A stretch of 64,000 bases of DNA from Victivallis vadensis (GCA_040394635.1 JBEBRW010000010.1:39340-103339); one strand, 5' to 3'; counted from the stretch's first letter, positions 3,995 to 16,688 are shown. Numbers and translations are program-made. Notes: a model not told the origin generated them from the sequence alone.

Positions 3995-4408
3995 TTAATC
4001 CTGAATACTGGTGCCGACGCTGGAGATCCCGTCGGCGCCAACGGTCAGGTCCTGCCTGGTGGCCTGAATCGTCCTGGCAATGCCATCCCAGTTTTTCTGA
4101 TTGGGGAGCGTCGAGATTACGCCGCTGTCGGACTTGCCGGCAAATATCTTGGCGCCGGGCGTCGGGTCCTGCGTGGTCGCAATGCTGACCGATGCATACG
4201 CCATCCACCCGGACTGCCAGGCTATGACCGTTTTATTTTTCGTGCTCTCGCTCAGGGTCTTGACGACCGATTCGCTGGATTGAATCACCTGCTCAATGCT
4301 GCCGTCCTCGCGATAGATCGTGGTGGTGGACCGGGTCGGCGCAAAACATCCGGCGGTCATCAGCATTGCTCCAGCAGCAATGATTAATTTCTGCATATTT
4401 TTACTCAT
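3995..4408 (-). CDS. Small lipoprotein, the last gene of the tail operon
   Basis: Signal peptide with a lipobox (AMLMTAGC). The start overlaps the stop of the upstream fibre gene by 8 nt, which suggests translational coupling. Confidence 0.6.
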   Translation of the reverse strand: MSKNMQKLIIAAGAMLMTAGCFAPTRSTTTIYREDGSIEQVIQSSESVVKTLSESTKNKTVIAWQSGWMAYASVSIATTQDPTPGAKIFAGKSDSGVISTLPNQKNWDGIARTIQATRQDLTVGADGISSVGTSIQD

Positions 4409-5456
4409 CGGGGGCTCCCCAGCTGTAGAATGCGCTCACGGCTTCACCGGCCCAACTGGTGGAGCCGTCCGGATTGATGGTGACGGGACGAACCTCGATT
4501 GTGCCCGTAGTGGTATCGGCATCGCCCACAGTCACCGCGGGAACGCCGCCTGAACCGCCGGCAGCGGCCACTGCGCCGGGCTTCCAGGCTTGGGTAGCCG
4601 CCTCATAAACCAACGCCTGCCCATCGGATGCGTCGGACAAGCCGGACACGTCGGACAAGTCAGCCAGAGAGCTTGCACCGGCAGGGCCCCGGTCCCCTTT
4701 GTCGCCTTTGGGGCCGGGTTCTCCCGTATCGCCTTTTTCGCCCTGATCGCCTTTGGGGCCGGGTGCTCCGGTATCGCCTTTTTCCCCGGCCGGGCCGCCG
4801 GCTATCTTCAAGGGATCGGACCAGAGGCCGCCGATTTCACGGTTGCGAAGGCGGTACCAGCGGGCATTTTCGACACTCGCGGACCAATCGCCCGGCTCGG
4901 ACTCATTCGAAGAATATTGCAGCTCGAGACCGGCCTGCCAGAGCGATTCCACCCACGTGCGGTCCGCCCAATGCGCGGCCACCTCTTTCGGCTCCGTGCC
5001 GGAAACCGGGTCGATCGGCATAATTGCCTTGATGGGAAATTTACAATAATAAACCGCTTTGCCGCTGGTCTCCATGCCCCACAACTCAAACCAGGCGCCA
5101 ATGGATTCCCGCCCGTTGAGAGCAGCCAGGAAGTTAACCGTGTTGGCATTGATGACAAGCCCGACTTCGCCTTGTGCCAGGCCGGACGTATCGATATTTT
5201 CGCTCAATATCCGGCACATGGGTTCAGTGGTACAGTCATGGTCGCAATCGATCGCGGCCCGCCAGCTCGGCACTTCCGTCAGGTCAAGCGGCTTAAGCTG
5301 ACCGGACTCGGACGAACACAGCTGAATGGTCCATTCGGGCGAAGTGGCGAAGGCAATTTCCGGCTTCGTCAAACTACTCCCGCCAACGTTTCCCGGCTCC
5401 GAGTCACTGACGCGCCTGCGCAGGGTATTTGTGCTAACATTGTACTGATACAGCAT
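4401..5456 (-). CDS. Tail-fibre-like protein with a collagen-like G-X-Y segment
   Basis: A 351-aa ORF with 13 uninterrupted G-X-Y triplets (GPAGEKGDTGAPGPKGDQGEKGDTGEPGPKGDKGDRGPAG). It sits at the distal end of a tail gene string. Confidence 0.8.
   Translation of the reverse strand: MLYQYNVSTNTLRRRVSDSEPGNVGGSSLTKPEIAFATSPEWTIQLCSSESGQLKPLDLTEVPSWRAAIDCDHDCTTEPMCRILSENIDTSGLAQGEVGLVINANTVNFLAALNGRESIGAWFELWGMETSGKAVYYCKFPIKAIMPIDPVSGTEPKEVAAHWADRTWVESLWQAGLELQYSSNESEPGDWSASVENARWYRLRNREIGGLWSDPLKIAGGPAGEKGDTGAPGPKGDQGEKGDTGEPGPKGDKGDRGPAGASSLADLSDVSGLSDASDGQALVYEAATQAWKPGAVAAAGGSGGVPAVTVGDADTTTGTIEVRPVTINPDGSTSWAGEAVSAFYSWGAPDE
4677..4796 (-). repeat. Collagen-like G-X-Y triplet repeat (coding)
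   Basis: aa 221-260 of the 351-aa ORF. It contains the internal duplicate GEKGDTG(A/E)PGPKGD. Confidence 0.85.
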
Positions 5457-5459
5457 ATT

Positions 5460-6854
5460 TTATCCTTTTTTGTTTGCCGGGGTGTTTTTTGCTCCGGACA
5501 TTATTTGTTGATATTTGGCGAACAATTCTTCGCCGACCTGGCTGCGGAACCATGGCTCGTGCTCATGTTCCGATTTCTCAAATTTCTTGCGGTGTTCACC
5601 CGTGAAGCCGTTTCTGCTCAACCCTTTGATTCCGATCGGAATGGTTTCGCCGGGGTATTTCCTCATGGTTTTGTCGGCAAACTTGTGCCAGAGGTCGATG
5701 TCCACGAAGTTGCCTTCGCAGGAGCGGACAATGTCGATAAACCGGTCGCGATGCCGGAAATGGCAGCCGCTGAGCGCGGTAATGCACAGGTCCTCGCGTT
5801 GATTTACCAGCCGGTGTTTTTCCAGCGGCCAGTAATAAGTCGCGTTTTTCCAGCCGAAAAGACCGGTACTGCTCCGGGCCAGTTTGACCGTTTCGGCCAG
5901 GTATTCCGGCGGATAGAAATCATCGTCCTCCATGAAGATGATGATGCCGCCGTTCCATTCCTTTAGTCCGGCCAGAAGATTTTCGCGGTGCGTGAAACGC
6001 TTTTTCGGGTCATGTTCCCGGCGGATATATTTGCAGGCGCGGGCGGGACCGACCGGCTCTTTGCCGTCATCCACCACGACCCATTGGAAATTCTGGAAGG
6101 TCTGGTTATTGAGCATTTTTTCGTGCAGGGCAAACAGCGCCTGACGGTCGCGGGTCACCGTCAGGACCGTAACTTTCGCCTCGCGGGCCGCCAGTCCCGC
6201 CAACTCCAGCGCCCGGCTCAGAAGCGGATTGAAATCCGGCACATATTCCTGCTCCGTCATGATCTTCAGCCGCTTTTCACGGATCTCCGCCGCGAATTCG
6301 GGGTCCATGGCGAAACATTCCTGTTCCGCCTGGCTCAAATTGCCGATCGCCCAGGCCCGGTGAACCGGATATCCGTGCTGGGCCTCGATCATCAGGATAC
6401 CCGCATCCGCCAGATGCTTCAGCACGCATTGCGGACAGGCCGGACGCGGGAAGCTGAAGTCCCCCGTATCGGCGCTTTTCACCGCCGCCCGCGCCGGGCG
6501 CGCATACATCCCCAGTACCGGAAGCTGCGCCGCAGGGATTCCGGCGGCCTGTTCTTCCGTCAGCACCCGGGGCCATGTCTGGGCGGAAACCCGGTTCATG
6601 ACGTCCTCGCCGAACCGTGCTTTCAGCTTTTCCCGGCTCTCTTCCGTCCATTTGATCGAGGCCAGGAACTGAATCAAATGGGCAATGATGGTTTTCCGGT
6701 GGCAGCGGCTGCAGCTTTTCAGCTTTTCGTTCATCGCGTTTACCGGGGCCTCCAGATTGGGCAGCAGCTCGGTCAGGAACCCGATGTTTCCGGTGAAATC
6801 CTGGTGTGTTTTCTCATCCAGGTTCGACAAAAATTCTTTGGTTTGCAGAGACAT
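5460..6854 (-). CDS. Two-domain protein: an N-terminal Cys-pair domain fused to a GT-A (family-2-like) glycosyltransferase domain
   Basis: The C-terminal half has VTVLTVTRDR...FQWVVVDDG and a DXD-type FMEDDDFYP motif. The N-terminal half has CSRC and CPQC pairs. Confidence 0.75.
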   Translation of the reverse strand: MSLQTKEFLSNLDEKTHQDFTGNIGFLTELLPNLEAPVNAMNEKLKSCSRCHRKTIIAHLIQFLASIKWTEESREKLKARFGEDVMNRVSAQTWPRVLTEEQAAGIPAAQLPVLGMYARPARAAVKSADTGDFSFPRPACPQCVLKHLADAGILMIEAQHGYPVHRAWAIGNLSQAEQECFAMDPEFAAEIREKRLKIMTEQEYVPDFNPLLSRALELAGLAAREAKVTVLTVTRDRQALFALHEKMLNNQTFQNFQWVVVDDGKEPVGPARACKYIRREHDPKKRFTHRENLLAGLKEWNGGIIIFMEDDDFYPPEYLAETVKLARSSTGLFGWKNATYYWPLEKHRLVNQREDLCITALSGCHFRHRDRFIDIVRSCEGNFVDIDLWHKFADKTMRKYPGETIPIGIKGLSRNGFTGEHRKKFEKSEHEHEPWFRSQVGEELFAKYQQIMSGAKNTPANKKG

Positions 6855-6864
6855 ATATCCTCCT

Positions 6865-9609
6865 TTATTCGGTCTCGAATCGATTCATAGCGGTACCGCA
6901 GTCGAAATCATCCGACCAGCTGTCGACTTCGCCGTTATAGTTCCAATATTGATAGGGCGTGGAGTTGCAGATATACTGTCCGCACCCGACATTTCCCCAA
7001 TACCCCCTGCACTGTTGGATATGGTAGTCAAGTTCGTTTAGCGGAGCGAAGGGCTCATCCACAAAGTCACATAATTCCTGGCTGGTCGCAAATCCCATTA
7101 CCAGACTTCGGATGATGGTATTGGACGAGTCACTGCTTTCGCTGTAAAAACAGTCCCCATTGCTTCCCGATCCCGAATCCGAAGCGGAGCAGCTTTCGGT
7201 ATATGGGAAACCCCGTTCCGCTTCTTTTGGCGGAATCTGATAAAAGACATAAGCTACCTGGTGATACGTGCCGCCGTTTGCCGAGGAACCTTCGCACGAG
7301 CCCGAATAACTGACGGAATAATTCGATGAACTGTAATGATCAACCCGGATTGCATAATACAAACCCTGATAATAGGCGATCATAGAATTCAACCACTTCT
7401 GATACAGAGCATTGTTCTCGTACACCCAGAGATCAATTTCATGTACCGAATCGAGAAACGGCGTCAGCCGGCGGAACTCAAATTCATACCCGTCCGGTAA
7501 CTGAAGATATCCGAATAATTCATCATTTTCCGGATCAAGAAGAGTATTGGGATTTACCGGAATCGGCACATTCAAATGATTGTCATAGGAAATAACGAAC
7601 TGATTATTTTCAATTTTCACATTGAACACTCCGATCCCATACTGTTTGCCTCCTTTCCAGGCACTTTTGTCACATTCACGATAATCGGATGACCAGTTGC
7701 AATCATAATAATGAGACCAACCGTGAGGGGTCCAGTAAGCACCATATAGCCTGGTATATTTACCATTTATATCCGGAGTTCCGTCGCCATCGCCACCGTC
7801 AGAGCCGTCACCAGTTCCATCGCCGGTTCCATCACCAGTACCATCACCAGTACCATCACCAGTACCATCGCCAGTGCCATCACCAGTGCCATCGCCAGTA
7901 CCATCACCAGTTCCATCACCAGTTCCATCACCAGTGCCGTCACCAGTTCCATCGCCAGTGCCGTCACCAGTGCCGTCACCAGTGCCATCGCCAGTGCCAT
8001 CACCAGTACCATCACCAGTACCATCACCAGTACCATCACCAGTACCATCACCAGTACCATCGCCAGAGCCGTCACCAGTTCCGTCACCAGTTCCATCGCC
8101 AGAGCCGTCACCAGTTCCGTCACTGCTGCCATCACTAGAGCCATCGCTGGAGCCATCACTGGAGCCATCGCTACTGCCATCGCTGGAGCCATCACTGGAG
8201 CCATCGCTACTGCCATCACTGCTACCATCGCTACTGCCATCACTGCTACCATCGCTAGAGCCATCACTGCTACCATCGCTAGAGCCATCACTGCTGCCGT
8301 CACTGGAGCCATCGCTTGAGCTATCACTATTGCCATCATTGCTCAATCCGCCGTAGTAATCTCTCAACCACGAGTCCTTCACCGGAATATTCGTTTTTAA
8401 CCATGGACTGTATGCTCCCGTCTTGTCTTCCTCATCTTCCGTCTCCGGGGGCCTGCTGCCATCGGGCTCCTCTTCCACCACGACACACTCACAGTCATTG
8501 ATTTTCAACGTGAAGTCGGCATAGCGGGGCATATAAGACGGTTTCTCCTTGCTCGAATTTTTCATGATCAGACGATCATAGTAAAATCCCGAATAGATAA
8601 ATAAATTCCCCTGTTCTGCCGGAATCCAGTCTTTGACGCTGGTATTGTTGCGGACATACCACTCATCGTAAACCGCCTTGCGTCTTGCCAGTTCCACCTT
8701 GTACGCTTCTTTGTCTTCTTCCGTGGCCTTTTCGCCCGGCTTCGGCAATTTATCAAACACCGGCTCGGGCTCACAGCCAAAGTCTGATGTAGTGGAAAAA
8801 ACCAGTTTTCCACTGATCGGACCGTCAAACAAATCACACACATCCGCCGCCCGGATCAGGACCGACGTTTTCTGAATCACCGTCCCCAAATCCCCCCGCG
8901 GCAAAACGTCGATTATCCCCATAGTGTGGCCCTGAAGTACCCTGTTATGAAAATTCGGAAAACTGCTCTGGGTGGCCGCGCCGCTGTAAAACCGGGCCCA
9001 GGGCGGACGCTCCTTCACCGGAATATCCCGCATTTCGCGGCTCAACTCCATGAACTCCTCCGTCGCCATCGAGGTGAACGGACAAATTTCCGAACCGCGA
9101 AATGTCAGCTGCCGGAGCTGAACCCCGAGCTCGCTGTCCACCAGCTCCCCGAAGGTATTTGCGAGAAGCCCCAGATATACCACCGCATAACATGCATGCG
9201 TACTGAAGGTCCCGTGGTTTTTCGGCTTTCTGCTCGTGAAATAGAGCCTGTCCGGCAGCCCGATGAACCTGCGGCAGCCCATTTTGGCGTTATAACGCGG
9301 ATAGTATTTCCGCAGGTGGCTGAGCCACTCCGGAGAATCCACTTTGGCCAGCTGCAGATGATACGTGCCGTCGATATGATCCAGTGGCCAGCGCAGCTCC
9401 GGGTTGCCCCAGCCCAATTCGGCATGAAATATCCCAAGTTTATCGATGCCGGACAGCGTCACCGTGGCCGAAGCGTCCTCCGTGCAGAACATTTTGCCGC
9501 ACAACGTATTGTCCACGACCGTACCGCCTCCGCCGCCGCCGGAATCGGATAATTCGTCTTCCTCATTGCGGCACGGACATTTTTTCGCTTTCAATGGTAC
9601 CAGCCTCAT
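6865..9609 (-). CDS. Large Cys/Tyr/Trp-rich tail-associated protein with a central (SSDG)n(TGDG)n low-complexity linker
   Basis: A 914-aa ORF in the tail operon, 1 nt downstream of the preceding gene's stop. The repeat tract spans aa ~424-610. Confidence 0.8.
7780..8340 (-). repeat. 12-nt-period tandem repeat (coding) encoding tetrapeptide units
   Basis: About 561 nt. From tract length I estimate roughly 18 SSDG-type units (8121-8340) and 28 (T/S)GDG-type units (7780-8120). Five identical 12-mers (caccagtaccat) occupy 8001..8060. Elsewhere the units differ at synonymous positions. Confidence 0.95.
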
Positions 9610-14051: not shown

Positions 14052-15200
14052 ATGACTCTCTACACCTACAGCTTCCAGGAAAAACGCCGCGACCTCTCCG
14101 ACATCCTCTCCACCGTGATCAAGAATGAACCCCGCTTCATCTCCTGCTTCAAACGCGTGGGCGACGCCACCCAGCAGAAACACGAGTGGCTCGAGGATCA
14201 GATCGCCGGCCGTTCCGTGACCGTGCAGTCCGTCAGCACCGGCGTCATCACGCTCTCCGCTGCCGACGCCGCCAAGGTCAAGGTCGGCACGCTGCTGGTG
14301 ATCAAAGACGATTCGGCCCTGTTCCGCATCGCCCAGATCAACAGCGCCACCACCTTCACGCTGGCCAAAGTCGCGGCCAACGGCTCAACCACGGCCGCTC
14401 CGGCCGCAGGCGCCGTCATGAACATCGTCAGCACCCCGATCGCGGAAGGCAGCGCCACCGGCGAAGGCGAAGAAACCTCGCACCTCTCCGATACCGCGTA
14501 CAACTGCACCCAGATCTTCCGCAAAGACATCGTGATCACCGGCTCGGCCCTGGCCATCAGCGTGGCCGGCAATGTCGACAACCAGCTGAACCGCCAGACC
14601 AATTTCGCCCTCGGCGAACTCTCCCGCGACCTGAATCGCGTGGCGCTCTTCGGCCGCCGTACCGAAAACACGGTCGCGGCCCGCGGTGAAATCGGCGGTC
14701 TCTACTACTTCACCGAAAACAGCGCGCTGAAGATCAATGCCAACGGCTCGATCATCGACAGTTTCATGATCAACGACGGTGCCCAGGCCGTCCTCGGCGA
14801 AGGCGGTGTTCCCACCCAGATCCTCTGTTCGCCCGGACAGGCCCGCGTGCTCTCCAACGAGTACAAGAACCGCCTGCAGATCGTCCGCTCCGACGACGCC
14901 CGCGGCGCCTATGTCGCCGTCATCATCAATGAAAGCAACGGCAGCACCATGACCATCATGGCCGATCCGGACGTACCGGACACCGAAGCCTGGGTGAACG
15001 ACGTCAACGGTTTCGGACTCTCGAACCTGCACGGCCGCGCCATCAGCGACCAGGATTCCACCCCGAAGGGCTTCGACGGCGTCAAGCGCATGGCCCTCGG
15101 CGAGCTGACGCTGGAGTTCAAGAACGCCCACCAGCGCCTCTGCCGCATCTACGGCCTCAAGCCGAGTGCCCAGGCCCTGGCCGCGCTCCGCTCCGAATAA
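14052..15200 (+). CDS. Major capsid protein candidate (382 aa)
   Basis: The call rests on size, an Ala/Gly/Thr/Ser-rich composition, its position after a scaffold-like gene, and the strong hairpin right after its stop. The N-terminal KHEWLEDQ region recalls SU10/DUF5309-type capsid proteins (memory only). Confidence 0.7.
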   Translation: MTLYTYSFQEKRRDLSDILSTVIKNEPRFISCFKRVGDATQQKHEWLEDQIAGRSVTVQSVSTGVITLSAADAAKVKVGTLLVIKDDSALFRIAQINSATTFTLAKVAANGSTTAAPAAGAVMNIVSTPIAEGSATGEGEETSHLSDTAYNCTQIFRKDIVITGSALAISVAGNVDNQLNRQTNFALGELSRDLNRVALFGRRTENTVAARGEIGGLYYFTENSALKINANGSIIDSFMINDGAQAVLGEGGVPTQILCSPGQARVLSNEYKNRLQIVRSDDARGAYVAVIINESNGSTMTIMADPDVPDTEAWVNDVNGFGLSNLHGRAISDQDSTPKGFDGVKRMALGELTLEFKNAHQRLCRIYGLKPSAQALAALRSE

Positions 15201-15633: not shown

Positions 15634-15669
15634 AGTCGGACCCGTCGGACCTGTCGGACGAGTCCGACT
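15634..15669. repeat. 9-nt-period array: 3 x GTCGGAC then 1 x GTCCGAC (member of the intergenic element family)
   Basis: The units are agtcggacc cgtcggacc tgtcggacg agtccgact. The junction GTCGGAC-GA-GTCCGAC is a perfect palindrome. The array lies between convergent gene ends. Confidence 0.85.
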
Positions 15670-16465
15670 ATTTATTGCGCTTGAAATTCCAGAGGGCTTC
15701 GTCTTTGTTTCCGCCGGGCCAACCCAGCTTGTAGATATTCTTGACTTCAAGATCGCCGTAGCCCCAGCCCGAATGTGTATAGCCCAACGCCTCAGAAGTC
15801 ACGTGTCCGTCGATCCAACCGATATTGGCGCGTCCGTTGTGGCGGAAATGCATGGTCGGACTGGCTCCGCCCCATCCCTCATCCGTCTCGTCTTCCTTCA
15901 GGTAAATCGGCGCAAACATATCGTATTGCTCCACAAAGACCCCGCCGTTGATTCCGGCGTTATCGGCGAAAACCACCGTTTGCGACGGCTTCTTGATCTC
16001 CGAGGTTTTCGCCGGGAAACTCGCCGGCCACTCCATCCACTTGCTGCCGATCACCGCAGAATATCCGTAACCGCCGTTTCCGTTGTTGGTATCGGCGACA
16101 TCGCCGAAGACGCCCGTCGGACACCGCCGGATTCCCTCGCTGTTACCCAGGAAATCGTTCAATCCGCCTTCCGGTTTGATATCGCTGGTGCCGTAGGAGC
16201 CGCCGGTGGCTTTGCCGCACCAGATATCCGAGCCCACGGCCAGGGGAATGAAATATCCCTCGTAATTGTCGCAATAAAGATTCAGCGCCAGCGGCAGTTG
16301 TTTGAGGTTGTTGGTGCAGCTGATCATTTTGGCTTTTTCGCGGGCGGAATTCAGCGCGGGCAAGAGCATTCCGGCCAGGATGGCGATGATCGCGATCACT
16401 ACGAGGAGTTCAATGAGGGTGAAATCATTGACGGACAGACGGCAGGTACGGGTGTGCTTAAACAT
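15668..16465 (-). CDS. Prepilin-type N-terminal cleavage/methylation domain protein (DUF1559-like pseudopilin)
   Basis: The ATG at 16465 gives [38 protein letters not shown]. The C-terminal box is [16 protein letters not shown]. Confidence 0.85.
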
Positions 16466-16688
16466 TTTTTGACCTTTGGTGTTACGCGCACTATGCATTT
16501 CTGCTCTCAAAGTACGGGGTCCGACTCATGGCTTTCACCATTTACGGTTGCGCGACAGTTCCCGGTTTTCACGGGATTCACCGTTCTCGCTTTGAGATTT
16601 GCATATAATATAATGCCCGTGACGGAAAAATCAATCCATTTGTTGAAAATATGGTTTACAAATCCACAAACAGGCTGTAAATTATTAG

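What the first reader, a model, noticed from the sequence alone, without database searches (positions are those of the whole stretch)
5460..6854. Glycosyltransferase fusion encoded next to the Ser/Thr-Asp-Gly repeat protein: possible repeat glycosylation
The 464-aa product has a C-terminal GT-A domain (VVVDDG ... FMEDDDFYP). Its N-terminal ~230 aa carry two CxxC pairs (CSRC, CPQC) and an AEQE-containing helical segment that looks phage-derived. It sits between the repeat-bearing 914-aa protein and the collagen-like fibre, inside a purely structural operon. Established analogy: staphylococcal Ser-Asp repeats are GlcNAc-modified by dedicated GT-A enzymes (SdgA/SdgB). Inference: this enzyme may glycosylate the SSDG/TGDG linker or the fibre. 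Alternatively it could modify host surface glycan, as prophage serotype-converting glycosyltransferases do.
Basis: inference. Interest (0 to 1): 0.6.

Follow-up and report, generated by a model that had tools for sequence, protein, structure and literature searches.

The report
Tail-operon glycosyltransferase beside acidic Ser/Thr linker
A phage-derived tail gene cluster kept in the chromosome of a Victivallaceae bacterium encodes a soluble sugar-adding enzyme directly after a tail protein with a long Ser/Thr-Asp-Gly linker; the same pairing recurs in several related genera and in an unrelated phage, so the enzyme most likely puts sugars on that linker, although no experiment shows this yet.

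Summary
ORF 5460-6854 (minus strand) encodes a 464-aa protein. Residues about 226-464 are a GT2/GT-A domain (Pfam E 4.5e-9; invariant DDG and EDDD). The all-helical N-terminal half carries two invariant CxxC pairs. It has no transmembrane segment and lies between the 914-aa repeat protein and the collagen-like fibre.

- All full-length homologues lie in the same syntenic tail module, each behind a protein with an S/T-D-G repeat linker.
- The same GT module follows S/T-rich acidic linker proteins in three further genera.
- Only 1 of 4303 long open frames in this genome has such a tract.
- Stealth-like, MptE/Maf-like or GT9-like transferases replace the GT2 module in other loci, while the linker neighbour stays.

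The N-terminal core (residues 135-222) belongs to a large phage-associated family (825 clusters). It has no Pfam, PHROG or PDB match, and its role is unknown.

Best reading (about 0.55): cytoplasmic O-glycosylation of the tail protein's linker. The SdgA/SdgB analogy is functional only, because those enzymes have a GT-B fold. This scan has already noted similar Ser-tract-plus-glycosyltransferase phage modules on other DNA. All evidence here is comparative; none is biochemical.

The parts
5460..6854 (-). Whole gene for the 464-aa two-part protein (P0001): phage-type helical N-terminal half plus a GT2/GT-A glycosyltransferase domain.
   Evidence: Orthologues are 56-88% identical. dN/dS is 0.13-0.29. 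No TM segment.
6480..6854 (-). N-terminal helical subdomain (residues 1-125) with the first invariant CxxC (C48/C51).
   Evidence: Model m2ff09e649011 gives pLDDT 85-97 here. It is shared with 280-330-aa proteins that match residues about 10-215.
6189..6452 (-). Core domain (residues 135-222): CPQCVLKHLADAG...HGYPVHR...IGNLSQAEQE...R..RL. It forms a helical bundle and belongs to a large uncharacterised phage-associated family.
   Evidence: 825 clusters at E<1e-3. No Pfam, PHROG or PDB sequence hit. pLDDT 96-98. No PDB fold match. Found in IMG/VR contigs.
5463..6179 (-). GT-A (GT2) catalytic domain, residues 226-464. Invariant residues are D262, D263, G264, E309, D310, D311, D385, K410 and H421.
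   Evidence: Pfam PF00535. Alignment with distant homologues. Weak matches to GT-A enzymes in the PDB.
6859..6864 (-). AGGAGG ribosome-binding site, 4 nt before the ATG and directly after the stop codon of the repeat-protein gene.
6865..9609 (-). Gene for the 914-aa tail-module protein (P0002), the proposed acceptor.
   Evidence: Orthologues in L001 and L003.
7759..8355 (-). Linker of P0002 (residues 419-617): (SSDG)n then (TGDG)n, with 65 Ser/Thr in 199 residues. This is the proposed glycosylation site.
   Evidence: It is the only such tract among 4303 open frames of 300 aa or more in the genome.
4401..5456 (-). Collagen-like tail fibre gene (351 aa). Its start codon lies 3 nt after the GT stop codon.

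Best explanation
P0001 is a soluble cytoplasmic enzyme made together with the tail proteins of a chromosomally inherited, phage-derived element. Its C-terminal GT-A (GT2-type) domain takes a sugar from a nucleotide-sugar. It most likely transfers that sugar to Ser/Thr hydroxyls of the long acidic (SSDG)n(TGDG)n linker of the protein encoded just upstream, before or during tail assembly. The result would be a sugar-coated, protease-resistant and stiffened tether between the two globular halves of that tail protein.

The N-terminal helical domain, with four invariant Cys, is proposed to dock the enzyme on its acceptor or on the assembling tail. This would resemble the way the non-catalytic DUF1975 domain of SdgB binds SD repeats.

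Shown: the gene, its domains, the motifs, the operon coupling, purifying selection, and the recurrent pairing with linker proteins. Inferred: enzyme activity, the acceptor, the sugar, and the role of the N-terminal domain.
For: 1. GT2 membership and an intact DDG/EDDD, invariant even in 26-31% identical homologues.
2. No TM segment or signal peptide.
3. Coupling to the neighbouring genes: TAA-AGGAGG-4 nt-ATG upstream and a 3-nt gap to the fibre gene.
4. All five full-length homologues (56-88% identity) lie in the same tail module. Each follows a protein whose linker keeps S/T, D and G although the repeat unit changes: [24 protein letters not shown]. The module is present in all 5 genomes of the genus.
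5. The same GT module directly follows proteins with 50-273-aa S/T-rich acidic tracts in three other genera, at four loci: L093, L094, L095 and L098. The tracts include (TDSTD)n. Two ordinary GT2 hits have no such neighbour (L096, L097).
6. Background rate: 1 of 4303 long open frames in this genome has such a tract.
7. In 15 further loci of Victivallaceae and one related family, a gene with the N-terminal core domain follows a linker protein. These linker proteins fall into at least 5 groups unrelated by BLAST. The fused or adjacent enzyme is Stealth-like, MptE/Maf-like, GT9+Memo or GT2.
8. The one lineage whose linker lacks Ser/Thr, (PDD)n, has the core domain without any transferase.
9. In an unrelated 77-kb IMG/VR phage contig, a core+GT9 fusion follows poly-Ser proteins and a tail fibre.
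10. Distant homologues of the GT module lie inside siphophage structural operons, between capsid and connector genes.
11. dN/dS is 0.13-0.29.
12. Precedent: mycobacteriophage virions are glycosylated by phage-encoded enzymes (Freeman et al. 2023, as described in PMC11256854). SdgB glycosylates SD repeats (PMC8561734).
Against: There is no biochemical or mass-spectrometric evidence. The donor sugar is unknown.

Most of the pairings come from one bacterial family and may descend from related prophage tail modules, so they are not fully independent.

The GT half of the structure model is poor (pLDDT below 50 for residues 325-433), so the catalytic base and acceptor site could not be inspected.

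The N-terminal core domain is not specific to linker proteins. In 22 IMG/VR loci only about 3-4 have Ser/Thr tracts nearby. It is also fused to NUDIX, LigT, UvrD and DUF5661 domains. Its docking role is therefore speculative.

Asp/Gly-rich repeats could instead be conserved for flexibility or calcium binding.
Confidence: 0.55

Rival explanations
1. The enzyme glycosylates another particle protein rather than the linker. Candidates are the collagen-like fibre encoded just downstream, or the tube or capsid proteins as in mycobacteriophages.
For: The fibre gene starts 3 nt after the GT stop codon. The fibre has a Ser-rich stretch after its collagen repeat. Distant homologues of the GT module lie next to capsid genes. 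Mycobacteriophage GTs modify capsid and tail tube proteins (PMC11256854).
Against: Collagen repeats are not conserved in the downstream genes of homologous islands; no Pfam Collagen hit was recorded for L002 or L003. In several genera the transferase gene is the last gene of the module, so no fibre follows it. The feature conserved across loci is the upstream S/T-rich linker.
Confidence: 0.15
2. It is a lysogenic-conversion enzyme that alters the host's surface glycan (LPS, capsule or EPS) to block superinfection, as prophage serotype-converting glycosyltransferases do.
For: Many prophage GT2 enzymes do this (established knowledge). PHROGs gives a weak hit to a 'moron/auxiliary' glycosyltransferase family (E 0.071).
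Against: The protein has no transmembrane helices, and no GtrA- or GtrC-like partner is present. The gene is coupled inside the tail operon, with no promoter of its own above chance. Its pairing with linker proteins holds while the enzyme class changes. Stealth-like and Maf-like replacements are hard to reconcile with one host glycan target.
Confidence: 0.12
3. The protein is mainly a structural or assembly factor of the tail, acting through its N-terminal phage domain. The GT domain would then be inactive, or would serve as a sugar-binding module.
For: The N-terminal core is the most conserved part among orthologues: residues 135-180 are nearly invariant. The core also occurs alone in tail modules (L041, L046).
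Against: The DDG and EDDD motifs and further polar residues are invariant down to 26% identity. dN/dS is low over the whole gene. The fused partners in other loci are all transferase-type enzymes.
Confidence: 0.06

Closest known systems
Mycobacteriophage virion glycosylation (Che8, Rita and relatives; Freeman et al. 2023, Cell Host Microbe 31:1216, as described in PMC11256854)
   Same: A phage-encoded soluble glycosyltransferase is thought to decorate the phage's own structural proteins in the host cytoplasm.
   Different: In that system the targets are the capsid and tail tube proteins, and the GT genes lie near the right end of the genome. Here the enzyme sits inside the tail operon. The proposed target is an internal acidic repeat linker of a distal tail protein. 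The enzyme carries a new N-terminal domain. No related sequence was found in 50,697 deposited phage genomes, apart from one weak hit.
Staphylococcal SdgA/SdgB acting on Ser-Asp repeats of Clf/Sdr adhesins (PMC8561734, PMC3794999)
   Same: A dedicated cytoplasmic glycosyltransferase acts on a long acidic Ser-containing repeat stalk. It has a non-catalytic domain that binds the repeat. The G022 linkers (TDSTD)n resemble SD repeats.
   Different: SdgA/SdgB have a GT-B fold (GT4-like) with a DUF1975 insert. P0001 is GT-A/GT2 with an unrelated helical N-terminal domain. There is no sequence relationship. The substrate here is a phage tail protein, not a cell-wall adhesin.
Gtr-type serotype-converting bactoprenol glucosyltransferase (GtrB) of temperate phages
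   Same: A GT2 catalytic domain encoded by a prophage.
   Different: GtrB has C-terminal transmembrane helices and works with GtrA and GtrC near the attachment site. P0001 has no TM segment and no such partners, and lies within the tail genes.
Maf (MptE-like, PF01973) flagellin glycosyltransferases and Stealth-family hexose-1-phosphate transferases
   Same: Domains of these families occupy the same position as the GT2 domain of P0001 in sister loci: fused to the same core domain and placed behind a linker protein. Maf enzymes O-glycosylate Ser/Thr of a protein (established knowledge).
   Different: These are different catalytic folds. P0001 itself has neither domain.

Membership tests
Glycosyltransferase family 2 / GT-A fold | Match to the family profile above the curated threshold | tested here: met
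   PF00535, 36.9 bits against a cut-off of 23.3, E 4.5e-9, residues 248-327.
Glycosyltransferase family 2 / GT-A fold | Acidic nucleotide-binding motif after beta-strand 2, and a DxD metal-binding motif | tested here: met
   D262-D263-G264 and E309-D310-D311(-D312) are invariant in 8 sequences down to 26% identity. They align with the DxD of DPMS and of a PglI-like enzyme.
Glycosyltransferase family 2 / GT-A fold | Single Rossmann-like GT-A fold seen in a structure | tested here: inconclusive
   The model shows beta-alpha-beta elements for residues 228-327, but pLDDT is below 50 for residues 325-433. The profile gives only weak PDB hits: heparosan synthase, SpsA, KfiA.
Glycosyltransferase family 2 / GT-A fold | Sugar transfer from a nucleotide-sugar | not testable with these tools
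   This needs an enzyme assay.
SdgA/SdgB-type SD-repeat glycosyltransferases | GT-B fold with an inserted DUF1975 acceptor-binding domain | tested here: not met
   Only GT2 (GT-A) was detected, with no GT1/GT4 or DUF1975 hit. The SdgB architecture is taken from PMC8561734.
SdgA/SdgB-type SD-repeat glycosyltransferases | Acts on Ser in acidic dipeptide repeats of a neighbouring or dedicated substrate | not testable with these tools
   Only the genomic pairing with S/T-D-G and TDSTD linkers is shown.
GtrB-type serotype-converting glucosyltransferase | C-terminal transmembrane helices, with GtrA flippase and GtrC partners | tested here: not met
   Maximum 19-residue hydropathy is 1.03. The neighbouring genes are tail genes with no membrane-protein family hit.
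Phage virion-glycosylation systems (mycobacteriophage type) | A phage-encoded GT, with virion proteins shown to carry glycans | not testable with these tools
   The phage-derived context is met: SU10-type capsid, tail fibre and Ig-like PHROG hits. Glycans on particles cannot be tested here. There is no sequence similarity to deposited phages.
Uncharacterised CxxC-KH helical phage domain (this report; not in Pfam or PHROGs) | About 85 aa with invariant C..C..KH, E, GYP.H, G.L.EAE.E and R..R | tested here: met
   Residues 135-222 match. 825 clusters were found with the profile. Invariant columns are listed.

The most novel reading that the evidence does not exclude
The conserved CxxC-KH helical domain is an undescribed phage 'delivery' module that brings interchangeable enzymes to phage structural proteins. 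The enzymes include at least five classes of sugar or sugar-phosphate transferase. In Victivallaceae this would support a vertically inherited, possibly domesticated tail-like particle, whose distal protein hangs on a glycosylated or phosphoglycosylated acidic tether. That would be a form of virion glycosylation distinct from the mycobacteriophage system.
Probability: 0.25. Interest if true: 0.75.

Novelty: new variant of a known kind. Interest (0 to 1): 0.58.

Why it matters
Sugar-coating of phage particles has been shown experimentally only in mycobacteriophages. If this enzyme modifies the acidic Ser/Thr linker of a tail protein, three things would follow.
- Virion glycosylation would extend to gut and anaerobe PVC-group bacteria.
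- Internal repeat linkers would be a new type of target.
- It would help explain why long Ser/Thr-rich tracts are common in uncultured phage tail proteins.

The work also defines a large phage domain family (at least 825 sequence clusters) that has no annotation and no structural relative. This family is recurrently fused to transferases, NUDIX, 2H-phosphoesterase and helicase domains. The gene pair is small and easy to test by co-expression.

Tried and rejected
Things that led nowhere:
- The N-terminal domain has no sequence match in Pfam, PHROGs, NCBIfam or the PDB. tblastn against 50,697 phage genomes found nothing.
- Foldseek with the confident N-terminal model found no PDB match (best E 1.3). 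In BFVD it found only an uncharacterised podovirus protein.
- The first full-length structure model was poor (pLDDT 59), so the GT active site could not be analysed and no fold search was run on it.
- The search for homologous proteins with the 225-aa N-terminal fragment returned nothing, because of its length window.
- The search for related loci failed with the diverse core alignment, and found no relatives for the GT1 and GT4 fusions.
- The paper by Freeman et al. 2023 is not held and is cited through PMC11256854.

Readings rejected:
- Gtr-type serotype conversion: no TM segment and no partner genes.
- Membership of the SdgA/SdgB family: different fold.
- The collagen-like fibre as the conserved target: collagen repeats are not conserved downstream.
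- DNA glycosylation: the island has no replication or DNA-modification genes.
- The idea that the core domain is always tied to Ser/Thr linkers: this holds for only about 3-4 of 22 IMG/VR loci.

Full report
**Observation.** The ORF at 5460-6854 on the minus strand exists and encodes 464 aa.
- Pfam places residues 248-327 in Glycos_transf_2 at E 4.5e-9, 36.9 bits against a curated cut-off of 23.3.
- The two CxxC pairs are C48/C51 and C140/C143. AEQE is at 176-179.
- The upstream gene (6865-9609) encodes the 914-aa protein. Its linker, residues 419-617, has 77 G, 49 D, 40 S and 25 T.
- The downstream gene (4401-5456) has a collagen repeat and matches tail-fibre PHROGs.
- The surrounding block is phage-derived. 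An SU10-type major capsid gene lies at 14052-15200, and an Ig-domain protein and tail genes lie on the minus strand.
- The junctions are TAA-AGGAGG-atat-ATG before the GT gene and TAA-aat-ATG after it. No minus-strand terminator-like site lies between the three genes, and promoter-like matches do not exceed the shuffled expectation.
- The protein has no hydrophobic segment; the maximum 19-residue Kyte-Doolittle value is 1.03. It is therefore a soluble cytoplasmic enzyme made with the tail proteins.

**Orthologues and inheritance.** Five full-length homologues (56-88% identity) were found.
- Every one that lies on a long enough contig is in the same tail module: tube, chaperone pair, 146-155 aa, 486 aa, 176-204 aa, a 790-919-aa protein, the GT, then a fibre.
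- The modules share chromosomal neighbours (SSF transporter, a 340-aa protein, SIR2).
- In one species the capsid genes are missing next to the tail genes (L003).
- All five genomes of the genus have the gene.
- dN/dS for the GT gene is 0.13 against the nearest species and 0.25-0.29 against more distant ones. This is similar to other island genes and not far from the flanking transporter at 0.08-0.14.
- The gene is therefore maintained by selection in a vertically inherited phage-derived element.

The protein upstream of each orthologue has an acidic Ser/Thr-Asp-Gly linker, although the repeat unit differs between species.
- Window: SSDG then TGDG.
- L001: GSDG/DGGSDG.
- L003 and L004: TGDG, with a length difference of 8 residues between two samples.
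- L002: SGSD/SGTD.
- L008: GDGADGTDGSSDG.
- L009: only the Asp/Gly end of the repeat is visible.

Under the same criterion, only 1 of 4303 open frames of at least 300 aa in this genome has such a tract, and it is this neighbour.

An HMM of the GT module finds it in three other genera of the family. In each case it sits directly behind a linker protein:
- L093: an S/T/G/P tract of 95 aa, followed by a core+Stealth-like+GT fusion of 743 aa.
- L094 and L095: two loci in one genome, with (TDSTD)-type tracts of 273 and 180 aa, followed by core+GT proteins of 364 and 374 aa.
- L098: a poly-Ser tract, followed by a 691-aa multi-transferase without the core domain.

Two weaker, ordinary GT2 hits (L096, L097) have no such neighbour.

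**The N-terminal half.** A profile of residues 1-225 finds 825 clusters at E<1e-3 among 1.84 billion representatives.
- Most are 85-140-aa proteins that consist only of the core (residues 135-222).
- Some 280-330-aa proteins match the whole N-terminal half, including the first CxxC.
- The core has invariant C..C..KH, E, GYP.H, G.L.EAE.E and R..R.
- It has no hit in Pfam, PHROGs, NCBIfam or PDB sequences, and none in 50,697 deposited phage genomes.
- With a 126-sequence alignment the model is confident (pLDDT 89; core 96-98) and all-helical.
- Foldseek finds no PDB relative (best E 1.3). In BFVD it finds only an uncharacterised podovirus protein (probability 1.0).
- Members lie in phage contigs: jumbo phages of 207 and 363 kb, a 41-kb SU10-like phage, and 22 IMG/VR contigs.
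- Fusion partners are GT1, GT4, GT9 and GT2, but also NUDIX, LigT, DUF5661, UvrD helicase and Hint.

**Core domain and linker proteins.** In 20 loci from Victivallaceae and relatives, the core-domain gene directly follows a protein with an S/T-rich acidic low-complexity tract in 15 cases. The remaining loci are:
- one with a (PDD)n tract;
- one where the core gene follows a separate GT2 gene;
- one with no tract;
- one weak hit;
- one cut by the contig end.

These linker proteins fall into at least five groups with no BLAST similarity outside the tract.

The parts fused behind the core cluster into four groups: Stealth-like (11 loci), MptE/Maf-like (2), one unknown, and the window's GT2 type. 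In L044 the order is linker protein ((TDSGDG)n), stand-alone core, then a GT9+Memo protein. The lineage with the (PDD)n linker, which has no hydroxyl residues, has a stand-alone core and no transferase.

In an unrelated 77-kb IMG/VR contig, a core+GT9 fusion follows two poly-Ser proteins and a tail fibre, and is followed by a methyltransferase.

Against a strict link: only about 3-4 of the 22 IMG/VR loci with a stand-alone core have Ser/Thr tracts within 10 kb. The core is therefore a general phage domain whose role is open.

**The GT module elsewhere.** Distant homologues (26-31% identity; P0010, P0012) are multi-domain enzymes with methyltransferase domains. They are encoded between the capsid and connector or tail genes of siphophage structural operons, together with more methyltransferase and GT-like genes. 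This subfamily is therefore tied to phage structural modules in two independent settings, which fits virion modification better than host-glycan conversion.

**Interpretation.** The best-supported reading is that the enzyme O-glycosylates the linker of the upstream tail protein in the cytoplasm (confidence about 0.55).
- Shown: the domains, intact motifs, solubility, operon coupling, purifying selection, and the recurrent pairing with linker proteins while the enzyme class changes.
- Inferred: activity, donor sugar, acceptor, and the docking role of the N-terminal domain.
- Rivals: another virion protein as target (0.15), host surface glycan (0.12), and a mainly structural role (0.06).

**Comparison with known systems.** The nearest functional precedents are mycobacteriophage virion glycosylation (Freeman et al. 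2023, as described in PMC11256854) and SdgA/SdgB on staphylococcal SD repeats.
- SdgA/SdgB have a GT-B fold with a DUF1975 insert that binds the repeat (PMC8561734).
- Gtr-type conversion fails on membrane topology and partner genes.

**Earlier notes of this scan.** Other agents have reported Ser/Thr-tract tail proteins coupled to glycosyltransferases in several unrelated prophages and phages. The general theme is therefore not new within the scan. New here are:
- the acidic S/T-D-G linker version in a vertically inherited tail island;
- this GT2 subfamily;
- the N-terminal domain family;
- the swapping of transferase classes behind it.

**Limits.**
- The GT half could not be modelled well.
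- Most of the pairings come from one bacterial family and are not independent events.

Noticed in passing
own genome: G000:C12:52675-53736, C55:23530-24618, C42:36903-37328 (outside the window): Three further SU10-type major capsid matches lie elsewhere in the same genome, so it holds several related phage or phage-derived elements. Only the one in this window carries the core domain or this GT.
   Followed up: partly
L003:3876-12686 (ENA k119_66359): In the homologous island of another species of the genus, a GntR regulator gene lies directly upstream of the tube gene and no capsid or scaffold genes are present. This is a tail-only version of the element.
   Followed up: no
L003:7609-10008 versus L004:3401-5776: The same repeat protein is 799 aa in one sample and 791 aa in another. 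The difference lies in the TGDG repeat number, so the linker length is polymorphic.
   Followed up: no
L071:9938-14950 and P0155: Proteins of 1367-1670 aa in large viral contigs join the core domain to a UvrD-type helicase, a LigT-like 2H phosphoesterase and DUF5661. This gives a very different context for the same domain.
   Followed up: partly
L044:6388-10710 (G291): Three overlapping genes: a 748-aa protein with a (TDSGDG)n linker, a 113-aa stand-alone core protein, and a 578-aa GT9 + Memo-like fusion.
   Followed up: partly
L046:6071-9092 (G039) and the same genus (G037, G038): A homologue of the 914-aa protein carries a (PDD)n linker without Ser/Thr. The core-domain protein behind it has no transferase domain.
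   Followed up: partly
L061:8001-13026 and L062:8001-11516: Siphophage structural operons hold a cassette of a multi-domain GT/methyltransferase enzyme plus further methyltransferase and GT-like genes, between the capsid and connector genes. These may be capsid-glycosylation cassettes.
   Followed up: partly
L066:4830-7020 (255-kb IMG/VR contig): A 152-aa Ser-rich protein directly precedes a 562-aa protein with a GT9-like domain, and no core domain is present.
   Followed up: no
window 15668-16510 (-): A type IV pilin-like gene with N-terminal methylation motif and DUF1559, typical of PVC-group bacteria, flanks the island.
   Followed up: no
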